From the NCBI GenBank assembly GCA_028716365.1, contig JAQUPZ010000001.1, positions 839,393 through 903,392 of the forward strand: a stretch of DNA of 64,000 nucleotides. Reading direction: 5' to 3'. Origin of the DNA: Kiritimatiellia bacterium (GTDB taxonomy: Bacteria > Verrucomicrobiota > Kiritimatiellia > UBA8416 > YA12-FULL-48-11). Shown piece after piece: positions 17,790-25,136 of this stretch. Every line of letters starts with the position of its first letter. Position 1 is the stretch's first letter. The notes under the pieces are model-generated. The model did no database searches. It was not told where the DNA came from and worked only from the letters and a program-made list of their open reading frames with translations. The position numbers and the translations under genes are program-made.

Positions 17790-19313
17790 ATGGCAGATAG
17801 CAATCTCTTGTTTCGAAGACAGTTCTTGCTGACGCCTGATGCCTGTTCATCTCTCAGTCATTGGCAGCATATACACGTTGGGATTTTTCATATATATGCA
17901 CACCCTGACGTACAACTTTCTACCGTAACATCAGCAGATACAAATGTAACTCTCTCGCTCGTGGGATACATCATCGATCCCAATTTCCCGGAGCGATCAA
18001 ATACAGATGTATTAAACACGATTGCCAGCCTCGGCGATTCAGTTGAAAATATTAGCGACTATCTGTGTGCCCTTTCCGGTCGTTTTGTTTTAATACTAAC
18101 AACCGCAAAGGAAACATTACTGTTTCATGATCCATGCGGATTGCGAACTGTATACTATACAAAATATGAAGGCAAAGTATTCGTTGGTTCGCAGCCGTAT
18201 ATCTTCAAACAGGTTATGCCTCTAAAGGATGGAGAACTCTTCTCGTCCTTTTTCAGATCATCATACGCAAAGCGTAATATTGAATATTGGATACCCAGCG
18301 GGTGCTCACTTTTTGAGGAAGTACACCATTTAATCCCTAATCACTATCTACGCCTTTCAACGCTTGAACAGATAAGGTATTGGCCTAAAAGGATATTGCT
18401 CCAGAAGCGTGTGGATGAAGTCATAACTGATGCCTCTGATCTTTTAAAGAAACTGATGATTGCTGCAAACAACAGATTTAAGCTCGCTCTACCGGTTACA
18501 GCAGGATGGGACTCAAGAATACTTCTTAGTGCTTCAAAGAGTATTTCCAGGGAAATCTACTTTTATACATTGCAATATCGCAACCTTAATTCCAGGTCAA
18601 GCGACATCAAAATTCCGGCAGAGCTATTACGATCTCTTGGCTTACGTCACAATCTTATAGATTGTCGTAAAACTATTTCTGATGAATTTATCGAAATATA
18701 CCGGCGGAATTCGCCGCTTGCGCACATAGAGGACTGGGGAAAAATAGCATACGGAATGATTGATAAGTATCCACAAGACAGGGTAGCCATTAAAGGGAAC
18801 TGTTCCGAAATTGCGAGGTCTTTTTATTATAAATACGGTTTTCATCGACCGATTATTTCTCCTGATCAGATCGTTGCACTTGTGAATGGCTGGCAGACGA
18901 TACCGTTTGTACGCGATCAGATTTTTACCTGGTATAATCAAGCCATTGAAGTGGCTGCTGAAACAAACATGGATATTCTTGATCTATTCTACTGGGAACA
19001 CCGAATGGGCAGTTGGCAGGCACAGAGTCAGCTTGAATGGGATATAGTCCAAGAGGCATATACTCCATTCAATCACAGAGGACTTCTCGAACTCATGCTT
19101 GGTGTTTCTACGAATTTACGAAGTGCTCCCAATTACAGCTTGTACAAAATGATGTTCAAACTTCTTTGGCCGGAAGTCATGAAACAGCCCATTAACCCTA
19201 CAACAACAATGAACAGGCTGAGGAAAATCTTAAAGCACGGTATTTATGAAATAGCGAGGAGAGTCTACGCATATGCTGTCCGGAAAAACGGAAACAATGG
19301 GAAATGGCAATAA
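17790..19313 (+). CDS. Asparagine-synthetase (AsnB)/lasso-cyclase-like amidotransferase homolog, divergent, no N-terminal Cys nucleophile
   Basis: A GAGGAG SD lies 5 nt upstream. An AsnB glutaminase-domain-like stretch is present (GRFVLIL...LFHDPCGLRTVYY). A degenerate PP-loop (LPVTAGWDSR) replaces the usual SGGLDS. GC is low (about 43%) relative to the neighbouring genes. Confidence 0.5.
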   Translation: MADSNLLFRRQFLLTPDACSSLSHWQHIHVGIFHIYAHPDVQLSTVTSADTNVTLSLVGYIIDPNFPERSNTDVLNTIASLGDSVENISDYLCALSGRFVLILTTAKETLLFHDPCGLRTVYYTKYEGKVFVGSQPYIFKQVMPLKDGELFSSFFRSSYAKRNIEYWIPSGCSLFEEVHHLIPNHYLRLSTLEQIRYWPKRILLQKRVDEVITDASDLLKKLMIAANNRFKLALPVTAGWDSRILLSASKSISREIYFYTLQYRNLNSRSSDIKIPAELLRSLGLRHNLIDCRKTISDEFIEIYRRNSPLAHIEDWGKIAYGMIDKYPQDRVAIKGNCSEIARSFYYKYGFHRPIISPDQIVALVNGWQTIPFVRDQIFTWYNQAIEVAAETNMDILDLFYWEHRMGSWQAQSQLEWDIVQEAYTPFNHRGLLELMLGVSTNLRSAPNYSLYKMMFKLLWPEVMKQPINPTTTMNRLRKILKHGIYEIARRVYAYAVRKNGNNGKWQ

Positions 19314-19440
19314 GAAGGGTTTGTTCAAAAAAAGCATGGAATATAACTTTTCCGGAGATTCTTTCTGCTTTTCTATAATGCTTTGAAGAAGCTCCAATAA
19401 AATCTTGCTGCCAATCGTAACAGTGTTAGCATTTTGATAA

Positions 19441-19508
19441 TTAACCGGGACAAGAGCGCTGGAACCGGTGTTTCAGAATTGCTCCCCAAAAAAGCAATTT
19501 CTTGTAAC
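19441..19508 (+). promoter_or_regulatory. Conserved 68-bp leader element, copy 1 (contains palindrome AATTGCT-N9-AGCAATT at 19476-19498)
   Basis: It is about 94% identical to 22170..22237. It ends 20 nt before the ATG of the 19529 gene. An SD (AGGAG) follows it. Confidence 0.6.
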
Positions 19509-19528
19509 TTAACTTTAGGAGTCGTGAC

Positions 19529-21223
19529 ATGTTTCAGCAGCGATTCATTTGTGTGTGTATGATTTTCACCGTCTTGATTCCCATCGCAGTGTCCGCCGAT
19601 TTGAAAGTGTGGACACTCGCCCAAACGGAGCGTGTTCTCCGTGATACGTTACCGGGCGAGGGACTACCGGTCCATATCGCGGCAGCGAAGAATGAGTGGG
19701 AGAGTTTTCAAATTATCGTCCGTTCGGACAAGCCGGTAGGGGGGATCACCATCGAGGCTGGCAAACTCAGGGGGCCATGGTTTTCACACATTCGGGCAAG
19801 AGATGCCCGCCTCTTCCGACAGCACCAGATGGAACTCACAGTTCCCACGTACAGAAACAGTAGTTTCAAAGAGGGGTGGTATCCCGACGCCCTGATCCCG
19901 TTTTTTCATCCGGTCACCGGCGAGGCCTTGTTGAATGCGCGGCTCAAGGCCGTACCGTTCAACCTGCCCGCCAATGAAACGCATGGTTTCTGGGTAGATA
20001 TTTATGTCCCCAAAAACGCCAAAGCCGGCAAATACAAAGGAACGTATGTACTGCGAAGCTCTGTCAAGACGGTCAAAATTCCGGTCGCGCTGACGGTATG
20101 GGATTTCACGCTGCCGCGTGTGGCAACGATCAAGACCTCTCTTGGCTGGCCTCCGGATAGAATGCGCAGCTATTACAAGCAGCGGGCAAAAGACGGCAAG
20201 GAAGAAGAACCAAAAGACTGGGATGCCATCGAGACACAGTGCGCGGAGATGATGACGCAACACCACATCAATTGCTGGCCGCCCGTCCCCTGGATGACGC
20301 CCAAGGCGCAGTCGGATGGCTCGTTCAAGATTCCTTCAGAGAACATCGAGGCATATAGAAAGTTCGTTGATCAGTATCAGGTCAACGCTCTTCAGACGCC
20401 ACATCCCGGAAGTGTTGTCAAGGACCCGGATGCAGATAAGGAAAAATTACATGCCTGGCTCAAGGCATGGACCGACGCCGCGAAGGAACTGGATCGTACG
20501 AACATTGTCTTTTACACCTATCTCAGGGATGAACCAAACGACGAGGAAGCCTACAAGTATGTCCAGAAATGGGGACGGGCGATCTGCCCCGTGAAGTCGG
20601 CGCTCAAGGTGATGGTTGTTGAGCAGACGTGGACACAGGATGAGAAGTGGGGTGATCTCTATGGCGCCGTTGACATCTGGTGCCCGCTGTTCTCATTATT
20701 CAAGCCGGAAAGCGCGGCAAAACGCCAGGCGCTCGGTGAAACCATTTGGACCTATACTGCCCTCTGCCAGCGTGATCCGACACCCTGGTGGCACATTGAT
20801 TTTCCGCTCCTGAACTATCGCGTGTCGTCTTGGATCGCATGGCGCTATCGAATGCGCGGTATCCTCTACTGGGGTGGCATGTCGTACTGGCGGGGTGTGG
20901 ACGATCCGTGGACTGACCCGAAGACGCTTGATCGTCGCAAAAACGGCAAAGGTCCCAACTACAACGGCGAGGGCAGTCTTCTCTATCCGGCCCGTGCAGT
21001 CGGCTATGAGGGCGTTGCGCCCAGCCTGCGATTGAAGGCCCTGCGCGATTCATTCGAAGATTACGAGTATCTCTCCATCCTGGAGCGTGCCGGTCTGGCC
21101 GATCAAGCACAGGAGATTATCATGCCCCTCGCTGGTTCATGGTTTAAATGGGATAGTGATCCCGCGGCCTATGAAAAGGCACGGGCCAAGCTGGCCGAGA
21201 TGATCGTGAAGGCGAAAAAATGA
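19529..21223 (+). CDS. Secreted hypothetical protein (possibly DUF4091/GH123-like glycoside hydrolase)
   Basis: A signal peptide is present. The gene is high GC (about 58%). The family assignment is only a weak recollection. Confidence 0.45.
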   Translation: MFQQRFICVCMIFTVLIPIAVSADLKVWTLAQTERVLRDTLPGEGLPVHIAAAKNEWESFQIIVRSDKPVGGITIEAGKLRGPWFSHIRARDARLFRQHQMELTVPTYRNSSFKEGWYPDALIPFFHPVTGEALLNARLKAVPFNLPANETHGFWVDIYVPKNAKAGKYKGTYVLRSSVKTVKIPVALTVWDFTLPRVATIKTSLGWPPDRMRSYYKQRAKDGKEEEPKDWDAIETQCAEMMTQHHINCWPPVPWMTPKAQSDGSFKIPSENIEAYRKFVDQYQVNALQTPHPGSVVKDPDADKEKLHAWLKAWTDAAKELDRTNIVFYTYLRDEPNDEEAYKYVQKWGRAICPVKSALKVMVVEQTWTQDEKWGDLYGAVDIWCPLFSLFKPESAAKRQALGETIWTYTALCQRDPTPWWHIDFPLLNYRVSSWIAWRYRMRGILYWGGMSYWRGVDDPWTDPKTLDRRKNGKGPNYNGEGSLLYPARAVGYEGVAPSLRLKALRDSFEDYEYLSILERAGLADQAQEIIMPLAGSWFKWDSDPAAYEKARAKLAEMIVKAKK

Positions 21224-21731
21224 TATTGATCCCTTCTAACCCTGACTAAGAATGTCACGCTGGGAAATAGAATTTTGTCCTGATTTTGCCTAATCACTAT
21301 TTACGACTGATTAGCCCGGATATTTCTCAGAGCGGCCAAAGAAGCCGTAACCAAAGAGAGAAGTGGTGTGCATTTTGCAGGGAAGCCGATAAGCGTCTTT
21401 TGCACGCCGACTTTGTTGCTGCAAGCGGTGCAGATGCATATCTAGCCCCGCTTGCAGACGCCGTGTCGGCATCACAAAATCCACTTACCGTTTCCCTGTC
21501 CCCATGGATCCCCAAAATGCACACCACGGCCTGTCATCCGTATCCGTCGACCGACGGATACGGAACTTAAGAAATTTTCTCAGGAAAAGAAAAAAATACC
21601 GGATAATAGTATGAGTAAGAGATTGGCTCATGCATAAGCGCTTTTGCGACAATCACTTTACCGCACCGTAAAAGTTTCGACTGCGTGCTATTGCACTTTG
21701 CTCAAGATGACCCTTCGTCGCGTCGAAAGGT

Positions 21732-21827
21732 AAATCCTGCCTTCGTCCCGAGTTCCTCAGACCGAGAGGATCAAGTCCGTCGAAGAACGGACACGCCGAA
21801 GCCCTTCGGGCGGATATTGCAGGATTT
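21732..21827. ncRNA. Candidate structured RNA element: 9-bp closing stem (AAATCCTGC/GCAGGATTT) enclosing about 78 nt with three internal hairpins
   Basis: Inverted repeats are visible in the sequence. One hairpin has a UUCG-type loop (GCCC-TTCG-GGC). It lies in a 1-kb non-coding gap. Confidence 0.3.
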
Positions 21828-22169
21828 TGATACTATTACCCGTCAACATTTTCCTGTTTTGAGAAGATTTTCTGCCGCGATAAAGATTGTCTCTTGATTC
21901 CGGATCAATCCGCCGATCGGCGGATTGTGTAAACCGTGTCACGAATTTCTATTCTTCGGTGAAATATTTGATGTCAGATGCCGTTGCAGCACGGCAAAAG
22001 GATCGGCGCTGTATATGCATACGCGCCGCATCCTTTCAACACAGCTGCAACGAGCAGATCACATCACAAGATTTCACCGGAAATTCGTAACACTCTTTAA
22101 CTCTAAACAGCGGCGAAATCTGAAATAACTGCTTGTAGCAAGGCATAACCGTGATAGGATTTCCTTAAC

Positions 22170-22237
22170 TAACCGGGACAAGAGCGCTGGAATCGGTGTT
22201 TCAGAATTGCTCCCCAATAAAGCAATTTCTTATAAAC
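22170..22237 (+). promoter_or_regulatory. Conserved 68-bp leader element, copy 2
   Basis: It is near-identical to 19441..19508 and contains the same AATTGCT-N9-AGCAATT palindrome. It ends 18 nt before the ATG at 22256. Confidence 0.6.
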
Positions 22238-22255
22238 TCAACTGACAATACAATC

Positions 22256-23377
22256 ATGAACCAAATCCTTTGTCTCCGTCATAGTCGTACCCGTTCTGGC
22301 AGCTTTGTGCTGTGGGCGGCCATCGCATTCCTCGTAACAACATTGGCATCGGCTCCGCTTTTCGCGGCAGAGGGGCCGCTGGCGTTTTCCGTCGATAAGA
22401 AGACGCAGAGCTACACGATCTCCGAGCAGGGGAAACCGGTTTTGACCTATCGATTTGGCGAAGTTCCGCTTCCGGCAGGGGTCACGGCGCATCATTTTTC
22501 CAAGGGCAACACACCGTATAACGGTGCCTACTTTACCGACGGAAGCCAATTCGGCGGCGCACGGAGCGACTACATTTATCCGCTCTACGGTTTCAACGGT
22601 GAGACACTCACCGCCGACTACCCCAAAGATCATATGCATCACCGAAGTCTCTGGTGGAGCTGGTGCGAGGTTCGCATGAACGACAAGATCGGCGATATTT
22701 GGGCCGTATGCAAAATCCGCGCCTACCCGGTCGAAATCACCAAAATGGAAGCCAGTGCCGATTCCGCCTTTCTCCAGGCGGTGAACATCTGGAGGTATGA
22801 CGATAATCCGGCTGATATCGTGCAAGAGATCGTGACGATTCGTGCCTTCAAGACCGAAGGGATGCCGGGAGCGAGGAGCCGCGCGGTCGATGTTGATGTC
22901 AGGCTCGAGGCGTTGGTCGACGGCGTGGCCATTACCGGCCGCCAGAAAGTCGACTACGGCGGTTACGGCGGAATGACGGTCCGGATGAATCCGGACGTGA
23001 AAGAGTTTTCGATCCGCGCCGTTCATCCGAACCCGGACAAGTGGCGCGGCGACGATCTGAAGATTGTGGAACGGGTGACCGATCCGGCAAAGTTCGGCAA
23101 TGCCGCCTGGATGGCGCTTTACGGCAAGTACCCGGCCGCCGGGATCGAAACTCCCGGCTTCACGACCGTCATGATGTTTGAGTCAAAGGCTACGCCGCTC
23201 TTCCCCAACAATTTCCGCTATTATGGCTCGACCTGCATTTCATTGGCCTTTCCCGCGAAGACGATTGTCCCGCTCGCAAAGGGCAAGCCGCTCGACTACA
23301 AAACCCGCTTTGTGATTTGCGAGGGGAAAACGACCATTGATCGGGAAAAAGCGCTGTGGCATGCGTATCAGCACTAG
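22256..23377 (+). CDS. Secreted DUF6807 (PmoA-like) family protein
   Basis: A signal peptide is present. The family motif HMHHRSLWWS is present. I place the start at 22256 because the upstream GTG-initiated ORF runs through the conserved leader, which is non-coding in copy 1. Confidence 0.6.
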   Translation: MNQILCLRHSRTRSGSFVLWAAIAFLVTTLASAPLFAAEGPLAFSVDKKTQSYTISEQGKPVLTYRFGEVPLPAGVTAHHFSKGNTPYNGAYFTDGSQFGGARSDYIYPLYGFNGETLTADYPKDHMHHRSLWWSWCEVRMNDKIGDIWAVCKIRAYPVEITKMEASADSAFLQAVNIWRYDDNPADIVQEIVTIRAFKTEGMPGARSRAVDVDVRLEALVDGVAITGRQKVDYGGYGGMTVRMNPDVKEFSIRAVHPNPDKWRGDDLKIVERVTDPAKFGNAAWMALYGKYPAAGIETPGFTTVMMFESKATPLFPNNFRYYGSTCISLAFPAKTIVPLAKGKPLDYKTRFVICEGKTTIDREKALWHAYQH

Positions 23378-23600
23378 TGGTCCGTGGAGTTATCGTGCCG
23401 TCTGGGCGGACTTACGCAACGCGACGTGGATTGGCATTACGTATGCTGAATGGGTCAGCCAGGCAATAGGGTATTGACGCGTGGAGTGTTGATGCAATAG
23501 ATTGCGGACATGGCAACGCAAACATGGTTATGGTTTATGCCAATGTTAAAAATCAATTTCTTATAACATTTAATATGCCATTGGGAGTTTAATCTGTATC

Positions 23601-25136
23601 ATGAACAGGATCTTTTGTACCCGCTATTTTCGAGGTCGATCTGACAGCATCATTTTGTGGATAGCCATAGTATTTCTTGTGACAATATTGGCACCGGCCG
23701 AGCTGTACGCCGGCCGCAACTTGATTCGCCGGGAGAACAAAAAAGCAGGTACGTCGGATTGGCAATTGACATATGTTCGTCTCGACAAGGCAGATCGTAC
23801 TGGTACCCGTTCTCCCGGTATTGAAGGCTACTGCTCGCGACAATCGGTTGCCGCCGGGGAATCGATCGAATTCTTTGTCAGCACTGAGCCGGCGTGCAAC
23901 TTCACCCTGGAGATCTTTCGGATGGGCTACTACGGAGGTTTGGGTGCCCGGCTGATGAAAACGTTGGGGCCTTTGACCGGCAAGACGCAGGCCCTGCCGC
24001 CGGTCGGTCCCCGGCGAATCCGCGAGTGCCGCTGGGAGTCCAGCGCCAAGTTGCTGATCCCGGCCGATTGGCCAAGCGGCGTCTACTTGGGTCGGCTGTC
24101 CCGAGTGCCAAATCCCGACGGTACGATGCCCTGGCAGAGCTACGTGGTGTTCATTGTTAAGGATGACCGTCCAGCCGACATTCTCTTACAGTGTCCCGAC
24201 AACACTTGGCAAGCCTACAACCGTTGGCCCGACGAATATTCGCTGTACATCGACCCGGGGAACAAATTTGCCTGGTGTAACACCAACGTCGATGTCAGCT
24301 TCAACCGGCCCTACGGCAAATACGTGCAGATTTACGAGAACCCGCAGTCCGTCGGTTCAGGCGAATTCCTGTGCTTTGAGTTTCCATTGTGTTATTGGCT
24401 GGAACAAAACGGATATGATGTCAGTTATTGCTCCAACAGCGACATGCTCACACCGGACCGCGCAGCAAAGTGCAAGGCCTTTATCAGCGTGGGACACGAC
24501 GAATACTGGGATCTGCGCCAGTATGAGAGCGTACTGAAGATTTCGCGCAGCGGTACCTGCGTGTTGTTCCTGTCGGGTAACTCCATTTGCTATGTGACGC
24601 CGTTCCGCCCGGGGCCCGATGGTTGTCCCAATCGGATTATTTCCCGCAAAGGCCCATATCAGGGGCTGACCATGGGTGCGGAACCGCCAACGAACAAGTT
24701 TGAATACGTGGGACCGGATGAAGGTCTATTGCTCGGTGCCCGCAATATCCTGCCTGTTAACGGCGGAGGCGACTGGGTCTGTACCAAACCGGAACACTGG
24801 ATATTTGCCGGCACGGGGATGAAAAAAGGCGACAGGATTCGCGGACTGGTAGGCTGGGAATTCCATGGCGATCCCCCGCCAATCAAGGGCTTGGAGGTGG
24901 TGGCCGAGGGCATTGCTTTGCACGGTGGTACGCGTCCCGTTCCATACCAGGCCACGATCTACCCCACTGAGAAAGGTGGTTTTGTTTTCAACGCCTCGAC
25001 CATCTTCTGGTCCACGGGCTTGAGTACTCCGCCAGGGCACATGCCACTGTGGAGCCATAACACGCGGCCCAACGGTCCAGACCCGCGAGTACAGCAGATC
25101 ACACACAACCTGCTGCGGCGTGCCATTAAGCGGTAG
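23601..25136 (+). CDS. Secreted hypothetical protein, possibly N,N-dimethylformamidase large-subunit-like (DmfA2-type) domain
   Basis: Its N-terminal 40 aa are homologous to the N-terminus of the 22256 protein. A TWQAYN motif is present. The family call is weak. Confidence 0.4.
   Translation: MNRIFCTRYFRGRSDSIILWIAIVFLVTILAPAELYAGRNLIRRENKKAGTSDWQLTYVRLDKADRTGTRSPGIEGYCSRQSVAAGESIEFFVSTEPACNFTLEIFRMGYYGGLGARLMKTLGPLTGKTQALPPVGPRRIRECRWESSAKLLIPADWPSGVYLGRLSRVPNPDGTMPWQSYVVFIVKDDRPADILLQCPDNTWQAYNRWPDEYSLYIDPGNKFAWCNTNVDVSFNRPYGKYVQIYENPQSVGSGEFLCFEFPLCYWLEQNGYDVSYCSNSDMLTPDRAAKCKAFISVGHDEYWDLRQYESVLKISRSGTCVLFLSGNSICYVTPFRPGPDGCPNRIISRKGPYQGLTMGAEPPTNKFEYVGPDEGLLLGARNILPVNGGGDWVCTKPEHWIFAGTGMKKGDRIRGLVGWEFHGDPPPIKGLEVVAEGIALHGGTRPVPYQATIYPTEKGGFVFNASTIFWSTGLSTPPGHMPLWSHNTRPNGPDPRVQQITHNLLRRAIKR

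What the first reader, a model, noticed from the sequence alone, without database searches (positions are those of the whole stretch)
22256..23720. Homologous N-terminal signal regions on two unrelated mature proteins
The first 40 aa of the DUF6807 protein (MNQILCLRHSRTRSGSFVLWAAIAFLVTTLASAPLFAAEG) and of the next gene's product (MNRIFCTRYFRGRSDSIILWIAIVFLVTILAPAELYAGRN) are roughly 55% identical. Nucleotide identity over this stretch is about 65%. The mature domains appear unrelated (PmoA-like versus DmfA2-like). The leader plus signal peptide therefore behaves like a shared 5' cassette. This could reflect recombination of promoter and signal modules, or a dedicated sorting signal with a conserved Cys at position 6 and an R-rich n-region.
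Basis: seen in the sequence. Interest (0 to 1): 0.5.

Follow-up and report, generated by a model that had tools for sequence, protein, structure and literature searches.

The report
Borrowed signal peptide on neighbouring gene
Two adjacent genes for unrelated secreted enzymes share a homologous export signal, because the first gene's own short signal was replaced by one from its neighbour's family; this is a tidy case of gene mosaicism, not a new sorting system.

Summary
Gene A (22256-23377, DUF6807/PmoA-like) and gene B (23601-25136, DMFA2_C) share 22 of their first 37-39 residues (BLASTP E 2e-10; 66.7% nucleotide identity). Their mature domains are unrelated (hhalign probability 0.2%).

The long Arg-rich N-terminus is the inherited signal of B's close orthologue clade. 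More remote B orthologues carry Tat signals.

More than 110 of the 120 closest DUF6807 orthologues have a short 22-24 aa Sec signal. Only A and two orthologues on low-GC contigs carry the long form.

At the DNA level, A resembles B over 22253-22353 and resembles canonical DUF6807 genes from 22349 onward. So A is a chimera with a breakpoint at codons 32-33.

No other protein family carries this N-terminus in the searches I could run. Cys6 is not conserved. No Tat, lipobox or ESPR feature was found. It most likely acts as an ordinary Sec signal.

The '68-bp leader' is a separate module. It is a roughly 105-200 nt element found before GH123, gene A and about 10 other genes whose signals are unrelated. 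It is absent before B.

GH123, A and B form a GC3-rich island in a Kiritimatiellia MAG, probably imported from Planctomycetota.

Interest is low to moderate.

The parts
22256..22354 (+). Codons 1-33 of gene A (MNQILCLRHSRTRSGSFVLWAAIAFLVTTLASA). This is the grafted n- and h-region, homologous to the DMFA2_C-clade signal.
   Evidence: blastn aligns A to B over 22253-22353 at 69%. 20/33 residues are identical to B and 18/33 to P0003. This segment is absent from more than 110 of 120 DUF6807 orthologues.
22349..22354 (+). Chimera junction at codons 32-33 (Ser-Ala). B-like homology ends here and canonical DUF6807 homology begins.
   Evidence: blastn against the canonical orthologue L018 starts at window 22349 (87.5% over 48 nt), and the B-like match ends at 22353. 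The MAFFT alignment agrees.
22355..23377 (+). Remainder of gene A: the native DUF6807 c-region (PLFAA|EGPLAFSVD) and the mature DUF6807/PmoA-like domain.
   Evidence: Pfam DUF6807 2e-28. It is 85-87% identical to orthologues, including short-signal ones on 60-64% GC contigs. GC3 is 0.72.
23601..23711 (+). Signal peptide of gene B (37 aa, MNRIFCTRYFRGRSDSIILWIAIVFLVTILAPAELYA). The n-region carries +3 charge, the h-region is 15 aa, and the c-region ends in L-Y-A.
   Evidence: Homologous N-termini occur in all close DMFA2_C orthologues (P0001-3, P0247-P0259). Hydropathy and charge were computed.
23712..25136 (+). Mature DMFA2_C (N,N-dimethylformamidase beta-subunit-like, DUF6605) domain of gene B.
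   Evidence: Pfam DMFA2_C 1.5e-72. It is 85-90% identical to orthologues on Planctomycetota-type contigs.
22223..22235 (+). 13-mer CAATTTCTTATAA, the 3' end of the leader, ending 20 nt before A's ATG.
   Evidence: Exact matches occur only at 22223 and 23554, with a one-mismatch copy at 19495.
23554..23566 (+). The same 13-mer, ending 34 nt before B's ATG. Apart from ATC directly before the ATG, it is the only upstream block shared by A and B.
   Evidence: nhmmer with the leader profile finds no leader before B.
22132..22235 (+). Leader copy upstream of gene A. It is a separate module and not part of the signal homology.
   Evidence: The direct repeat with 19389-19507 is 82% identical. nhmmer E 1.8e-30. 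It is conserved upstream of the DUF6807 orthologues in L015 and L016.
19403..19507 (+). Leader copy upstream of the GH123-like gene (19529-21223), whose signal peptide (MFQQRFICVCMIFTVLIPIAVSA) is unrelated to that of A and B.
   Evidence: the ORF is listed.

Best explanation
Gene A is a mosaic. A DUF6807 gene that originally carried the family's short Sec signal (about 23 aa, MINHRLGTVALLAFFAPAPLFAA) had its start codon, n-region and most of its h-region replaced. The replacement is the corresponding 32-33 codons of a DMFA2_C-clade gene, of which the neighbour B is the nearest known relative.

The exchange ran from about 3 nt before the ATG to the Ser-Ala of the c-region. Short sequence matches exist at both ends: ATGAAC at the 5' end and TCGGC at the 3' end.

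The event is old. Nucleotide identity is 67% and synonymous sites are close to random. It is shared by A and two orthologues (L015, L016) on low-GC contigs that carry the same leader.

The product is an ordinary, rather long and strongly hydrophobic Sec-type signal peptide: a 16-aa n-region with +3 charge, a 15-aa h-region, and a c-region ending L-F/Y-A.

Both genes, and GH123 upstream, lie in a GC3-rich island of a Kiritimatiellia genome. Their nearest relatives are on 60-65% GC contigs, several labelled Planctomycetota. The remodelling of the 5' end therefore plausibly followed horizontal acquisition.

Shown directly: the homology, the junction, the distribution among orthologues and the composition.
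Inferred: direction of transfer (by parsimony), the mechanism (illegitimate recombination or gene conversion), Sec export with cleavage, and the link to HGT.
For: - The similarity is limited to residues 1-39 and lies far above the signal-versus-signal background.
- The mature domains are unrelated.
- All close B orthologues carry the long N-terminus. Those at about 74% identity and below mostly carry Tat signals, and TIGR01409 hits P0007.
- More than 110 of 120 A orthologues at 73-87% identity have the short signal. The long form occurs only in A, L015 (true start found upstream of the called start) and L016.
- The DNA breakpoint is defined: the B-like match covers 22253-22353 and the canonical DUF6807 match starts at 22349.
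- A's N-terminus is closest to B (20/33), then to its own orthologue L015 (19) and to P0003 (18).
- GC3 is 0.64-0.68 for GH123, A and B against 0.40-0.55 for most other genes (0.59 for the gene after B). Orthologue loci are 60-65% GC, while the window is 48.8%.
- NCBI names the exact proteins as from a Kiritimatiellae bacterium.
Against: - The same-codon fraction at identical residues is only 45% for the A/B signals (chance about 32%). It is 73-74% for A's mature part against L015, L016 and L018. The donor may therefore have been a diverged DMFA2_C-clade gene rather than B itself, or the n=20 sample may mislead.
- The L016 orthologue is followed by a GDSL-lipase gene, not a DMFA2_C gene, so adjacency is not conserved.
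- Differences by codon position (12/10/15) show only weak coding constraint.
- Only 64 kb of the genome could be inspected for further copies.
- SignalP was not available, so export and cleavage are inferred.
Confidence: 0.7

Rival explanations
1. The shared N-terminus is a dedicated, lineage-specific sorting or export signal recognised by a particular machinery, and selection keeps it similar on unrelated cargo.
For: Amino-acid identity (59%) persists although synonymous sites are nearly randomised. The M-N-x-I/L start and the Arg-rich n-region recur in A, L015, L016 and the DMFA2_C clade.
Against: - The HMM search of 1.84 billion representatives returned only 3 DMFA2_C fragments and one unassignable 41-aa fragment.
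- No other ORF start in the window or in the 14 loci then fetched (L001-L014) matches.
- The genome-contig scan found none.
- Cys6 and most other positions vary among orthologues.
- The N-terminus diverges far faster than the mature domain: 30-42% against 85-90% for B and its orthologues.
Confidence: 0.08
2. Ongoing concerted evolution: repeated gene conversion between the adjacent 5' ends keeps A and B similar.
For: B's N-terminus is more similar to A (20/33) and to L015 (15/30) than to those of its own orthologues (4-13/33). The genes are adjacent and co-oriented.
Against: Nucleotide identity is only 67%, with 11 of 20 conserved residues using different codons. No identical tract longer than about 9 nt exists within the coding part. 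A recent conversion would leave near-identical DNA.
Confidence: 0.1
3. Both A and B received their N-terminus from a third, native Kiritimatiellia gene.
For: The signal-coding parts have host-like GC3 (0.52 and 0.54) against 0.68-0.72 for the mature parts.
Against: B's orthologues on 63-65% GC contigs (some labelled Planctomycetota) already carry the homologous N-terminus. B therefore inherited it vertically with the gene. No third carrier was found.
Confidence: 0.05
4. Chance or convergent similarity of two hydrophobic signal peptides, or a whole-gene tandem duplication followed by divergence.
For: Signal peptides share composition, and the genes are tandem.
Against: The score of 108 compares with a maximum of 47 among long-form-free signal pairs and 58 in shuffles. 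hhalign probability for the mature domains is 0.2%, and they belong to different Pfam families.
Confidence: 0.02

Closest known systems
Mosaic (chimeric) bacterial genes formed by recombination or gene conversion at 5' ends, including exchange of signal-peptide-coding segments between paralogous or neighbouring genes (general knowledge; no specific paper retrieved)
   Same: The two segments of one ORF have different nearest relatives. The breakpoint is sharp and sits at a short shared sequence. The exchanged segment is a functionally autonomous module, a signal peptide.
   Different: The donor and recipient mature proteins are completely unrelated. The exchange is old and fixed in a small clade. 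It occurs in genes that appear to have been horizontally acquired by a Kiritimatiellia lineage.
Sec (SPase I) signal peptides
   Same: Tripartite layout: a positively charged n-region (+3), a 15-residue hydrophobic core (Kyte-Doolittle 2.3-3.1) and a short c-region ending in Ala.
   Different: The n-region is unusually long at 16 aa, more than twice that of the canonical DUF6807 signal. Position -3 is Leu rather than Ala. Cleavage has not been verified.
Tat signal peptides (TIGR01409), which are carried by remote DMFA2_C orthologues
   Same: Long, Arg-containing n-region. Two close orthologues (P0001, P0003) still contain an RR pair. The overall length is similar.
   Different: A and B lack a twin arginine (they have R-H and R-Y). 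TIGR01409 does not match A, B or P0003. The h-region is much more hydrophobic than in the Tat orthologue, 2.3-3.1 against 1.5.
'Putative mobile promoters', and the outward-reading promoters at the ends of IS91/ISCR elements. This applies to the leader, not to the signal. It is recalled from knowledge and was not tested against a paper here.
   Same: A homologous non-coding element of about 105-200 nt sits upstream of non-homologous genes in several genomes. One copy lies directly downstream of an IS91-family transposase gene.
   Different: Most copies have no transposase nearby. All copies but L017/L028 face DNA that runs into an ORF or the contig end; an ATG-initiated ORF of at least 60 aa starts within 100 nt in 10 of 13. 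Promoter activity and mobility are untested.

Membership tests
Sec-type (SPase I) signal peptide | Positively charged n-region followed by a hydrophobic h-region of 7-15 residues | tested here: met
   A and B both have a 16-aa n-region with net charge +3. The best 15-aa hydropathy window is residues 17-31, with mean 2.32 for A and 3.14 for B.
Sec-type (SPase I) signal peptide | c-region with small residues at -1 and -3 (AxA rule), and cleavage | tested here: inconclusive
   The candidate sites are LFA|AEG in A and LYA|GRN in B. Position -1 is Ala, but -3 is Leu, which is tolerated but not typical. No SignalP was available and there are no experimental data.
Tat signal peptide | Twin-arginine motif (S/T-R-R-x-F-L-K) and a match to TIGR01409 | tested here: not met
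   A has L-R-H-S-R and B has T-R-Y-F-R. NCBIfam TIGR01409 hits the remote orthologue P0007 (18.5 bits, cut-off 16.7) but not A, B or P0003.
Lipoprotein (SPase II) signal peptide | Lipobox L-[AS]-[GA]-C at the end of the h-region | tested here: not met
   The only Cys is at position 6, in the n-region. No Cys follows the h-region in A or B (sequence).
ESPR extended signal peptide (PF13018), and type IV pilin-like N_methyl leaders | Match to the Pfam model at the N-terminus | tested here: not met
   The Pfam scan of the full proteins at E <= 0.01 returns only DUF6807 and DMFA2_C.
A family-defining 'sorting signal' shared by many cargo proteins | The same N-terminal motif on several unrelated protein families in one lineage | tested here: not met
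   Only two families carry it. The HMM search of 1.84 billion representatives gave 3 DMFA2_C fragments and one unassignable 41-aa fragment. No further copy exists in the window or in loci L001-L014. The complete genome could not be scanned.
Mosaic gene produced by recombination | Adjacent segments of one ORF have different nearest relatives, with a definable breakpoint | tested here: met
   Window 22253-22353 matches gene B. From 22349 onward the sequence matches canonical DUF6807 genes. Orthologue N-termini are shown.
DUF6807 (PF14100) and DMFA2_C (PF20254) for the mature parts | Pfam model above the gathering threshold | tested here: met
   100 bits (cut-off 27) and 245.5 bits (cut-off 27), respectively.

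The most novel reading that the evidence does not exclude
After cross-phylum acquisition, genes for secreted enzymes in this Kiritimatiellia lineage are 'domesticated' by grafting resident 5' modules. One module is a mobile promoter-leader that plugs them into a host regulon. The other is a long Arg-rich signal that the host's export machinery, or a specific sorting route, prefers. Gene A would carry both grafts. On this reading the retained amino-acid similarity of the A and B signals reflects selection for that route rather than history alone.
Probability: 0.1. Interest if true: 0.55.

Novelty: new member of a known kind. Interest (0 to 1): 0.3.

Why it matters
This is a clean, mappable example of a signal peptide behaving as an exchangeable module between unrelated genes, apparently during the settling-in of horizontally acquired glycan-degradation genes.

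It has practical consequences:
- Gene callers mis-started one orthologue. P0121 was called 17 codons short.
- Orthologue-based inference of export route would be wrong here. Remote DMFA2_C orthologues carry Tat signals, and DUF6807 orthologues a short Sec signal.

It does not reveal a new secretion or sorting system. The separate leader element is probably the more interesting object for follow-up.

Tried and rejected
- The word-indexed search of 5.8 billion proteins with the two 40-mers found no candidate. The query is too short for the index, so this result is uninformative.
With A+B it matched 59 stretches in GTDB representative genomes, none confirmed. The source genome is evidently not among the representatives.
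- The HMM of five N-termini against all ORF starts in the window and L001-L014 found only the training genes.
- Tat, lipoprotein and ESPR readings were rejected.
- Whole-gene duplication was rejected by hhalign.
- Rfam found nothing credible in 19200-23800.
- σ54 and ECF-type promoter readings of the leader were considered by eye and did not fit the spacing.
- RNAalifold on 12 leader copies gives two 7-bp hairpins with only one compensatory pair, which is weak evidence.
- Literature searches for Kiritimatiellae with signal peptides and HGT, for conserved signal peptides on unrelated proteins, and for DUF6807 returned nothing relevant.
- No homologue of the IS91-type transposase was found in the window or in other leader loci.
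Full report
**What is there.** Two co-oriented genes lie in tandem. Gene A (22256-23377, 373 aa) matches Pfam DUF6807 (2e-28); NCBI names it a 'PmoA family protein'. Gene B (23601-25136, 511 aa) matches DMFA2_C (1.5e-72). Exact-sequence look-ups place both on contigs of a Kiritimatiellae/Kiritimatiellia MAG: GCA_028706615.1, plus a second assembly with a 1.17-Mb contig.

**Check of the observation.**
- BLASTP of the full proteins aligns only residues 1-39, with 22 identical and E 2e-10.
- tblastn of either 40-mer against the window finds only the partner, at 7e-11.
- The raw Smith-Waterman score is 108. Against the N-termini of 240 homologues of the two families, scores for A vs B-family are 84, 63 and 41 for the three closest B orthologues and at most 33 for the rest. 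B vs A-family scores reach at most 47. Region-preserving shuffles reach at most 58.
- Nucleotide identity over the first 37 codons is 66.7%.
- A profile-profile comparison of 20-sequence alignments of the two families gives probability 0.2%.

**Where the N-terminus comes from.** The 120 best homologues of B fall into two groups.
- Homologues at about 74% identity and below mostly start with a twin-arginine signal (…RRDLLKGALAAS…). JGI annotates some as Tat, and TIGR01409 matches P0007.
- The closest clade comprises P0001-P0003 and the 90% cluster members P0247-P0259. It sits on 63-65% GC contigs labelled Thermoguttaceae, Anammoximicrobium and similar. All members carry a roughly 37-aa N-terminus homologous to that of A and B, for example MNRVLCLRRVLARTARLVLVAAVAFLIPWLASAEP.

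B therefore inherited its signal with the gene.

In contrast, more than 110 of the 120 closest A homologues (73-87% identical) have a short canonical Sec signal, M(I/M)NHRLGTVALLAFFAPAPLFAA|GPLAFSVD. The long form occurs only in three genes:
- A itself.
- L015. The gene caller had started protein P0121 at an internal Met; reading the DNA gives MNQIFVLRQSQVRSVLLMAIVFSVMTLVSASLFAAEG.
- L016/P0128, with MNKIFLLHHTLVCS….

All three lie on 47-52% GC contigs. Parsimony therefore points to transfer from the DMFA2_C clade into a DUF6807 gene.

**The junction.** blastn aligns the A 5' region with B over window 22253-22353 (69%). It aligns with the canonical DUF6807 orthologue L018 from 22349 onward (87.5% over the first 48 nt). 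The multiple alignment shows the same picture. The breakpoint lies in codons 32-33 (Ser-Ala), so A keeps the native DUF6807 c-region (PLFAAEGPLAFSVD). Short matches exist on both sides: ATGAAC around the start codon and TCGGC at the junction. These would suit illegitimate recombination or a short conversion tract, but that mechanism is inferred.

**Age and donor.**
- A's first 33 residues are closest to B (20/33), then to L015 (19) and P0003 (18).
- B is closer to A and L015 than to its own orthologues (4-13/33).
- Among residues identical in A and B, only 9 of 20 use the same codon. Chance would give 6.5 (P = 0.16).
- By comparison, A's mature part shares 73-74% of codons with L015, L016 and the short-signal L018.

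The exchange is therefore not recent, and ongoing gene conversion is unlikely. The donor may have been an already diverged member of the DMFA2_C clade rather than today's B.

Signals evolve much faster than the mature domains. B against P0001 is 30% identical in the signal and 90% in the mature domain. A against L016 is 45% and 85%. That is the usual behaviour of signal peptides and argues against a specifically recognised motif.

**Is it a sorting-signal family?**
- An HMM of five N-termini against all possible ORF starts in the window and in L001-L014 found only the training genes.
- The same alignment, searched with HMMER against 1.84 billion cluster representatives, gave four hits. Three are fragments of DMFA2_C orthologues and one is a 41-aa fragment that cannot be assigned.
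- A back-translated pattern scan of GTDB representative genomes found nothing.
- Cys6 is replaced by V, L, Y, H or S in orthologues.
- No RR motif, lipobox, ESPR or N_methyl match is present.

One caveat applies. Representatives at 50% identity can hide lineage-specific N-termini, and I could not scan the whole source genome.

**How it most likely works.** Both signals have a 16-aa n-region (+3 charge), a 15-aa strongly hydrophobic core (Kyte-Doolittle 2.3 and 3.1, against 1.5 in a Tat orthologue) and a c-region ending L-F/Y-A. This is a Sec-type signal peptide, possibly SRP-dependent. Cleavage after residue 37 or 38 is inferred and was not tested.

**Context.**
- GH123 (19529-21223), A and B have GC3 of 0.64-0.68. 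The next gene has 0.59, and all other genes of the window have 0.40-0.57.
- Their closest relatives lie on 60-65% GC contigs, several labelled Planctomycetota.
- The signal-coding parts have GC3 of 0.52-0.54.

This fits import of the genes into a roughly 49% GC Kiritimatiellia genome followed by remodelling of their 5' ends. The link between the two is an inference.

**The leader is a different module.**
- A 119-nt repeat (19389-19507 and 22117-22235, 82% identical) precedes GH123 and A.
- The same element is conserved before the DUF6807 orthologues in L015 and L016.
- Exact-pattern scans found one more copy in a 'Lentisphaerae' MAG (L017) and nine in metagenome contigs, one identical to L017.
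- Where an ORF could be read downstream (L021, L022, L023, L025, L026), it encodes an unrelated protein with an unrelated Sec or Tat signal, for example MKIMKLSAIMVACVSVVAFVGA or MNRRSFLKTATAAGIALTGPAILAQS.
- An nhmmer profile of the leader finds the two window copies (E about 1e-30) but nothing before B.
- A and B share upstream only the 13-mer CAATTTCTTATAA, which forms the 3' end of the leader, and ATC before the ATG.

So 'leader plus signal' is not one cassette. Only gene A and its two orthologues combine both.

**Verdict.** The feature is real, statistically solid and well explained as a mosaic gene that borrowed a signal peptide. It is a new instance of a known kind of event and not a new sorting system.

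Noticed in passing
window 19305-19507 and 22117-22235; also L015 1351-1455, L016 203-307, L017 1996-2099(-), and L020-L028: A conserved non-coding element of at least 105 nt (up to about 200 nt in some copies) with core AACyGGGACAAGAGCGCTGrAAyCGGTGTTTCAGAATTGCTCCCCAAwAAAGCAATTTCTTATCAAC. It sits 26-100 nt upstream of non-homologous, mostly secreted-protein genes in several low- to mid-GC contigs. By eye it has a sigma70-like TTGyCA-16 nt-TGnTAGCAT upstream part. It has two 7-bp hairpins with one compensatory change and no Rfam match. It could be a regulon promoter-leader, a cis-regulatory RNA or a 'mobile promoter'.
   Followed up: partly
L017 1990-3593 (MHBM01000003.1, Lentisphaerae bacterium RIFOXYA12_FULL_48_11); identical in L028: Here the leader lies directly downstream of an IS91-family transposase gene on the same strand (Y2_Tnp 1.7e-27, Zn_Tnp_IS91 5e-16). 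It abuts a (CAA)n-like tract and a truncated secreted-protein ORF. By eye, L021 keeps homology across the last roughly 15 nt of that transposase gene. This hints that the leader may be, or may have been, the outward-reading end of a rolling-circle IS. No transposase is present in the window or in the other leader loci.
   Followed up: partly
window 19529-25136 (possibly to 28149): GH123-like, DUF6807 and DMFA2_C genes form a GC3-rich island (0.64-0.68, against 0.40-0.55 for most other genes) in a 48.8% GC Kiritimatiellia window. The encoded proteins are 80-87% identical to proteins on 60-65% GC Planctomycetota-type contigs. This suggests cross-phylum horizontal transfer.
   Followed up: partly
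window 23523-23567 and L017 1779-1824 (-): Gene B's upstream region (ATGGTTATGGTTTATGCCAATGTTAAAAATCAATTTCTTATAAC) is 83% identical over 46 nt to the upstream region of an unrelated truncated gene in L017. This is a second conserved promoter-type block that shares only the ...CAATTTCTTA-AAC end with the leader.
   Followed up: no
window 21224-22116: About 900 bp between the GH123 stop and the leader of gene A contains no ORF longer than 94 aa and no recognised feature. It could be a remnant of a rearrangement or of a lost gene.
   Followed up: no
DMFA2_C family (P0001-P0120): Within one orthologous family the export signal differs. Tat signals occur in most Planctomycetota and Verrucomicrobiota members. 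A long non-RR hydrophobic signal occurs in the clade closest to B. Some members, such as P0029 and P0031, are annotated with no signal at all.
   Followed up: partly
L016 1-120: Tandem copies of GGTAAACCATGCCTG(C/T)GGCGTGGT(A/T)AAC lie upstream of the leader. A related sequence (reverse complement of GTGGTAACAGGCATGGTTTGTTCACGC) lies upstream of the leader in L017. Their meaning is unknown.
   Followed up: no
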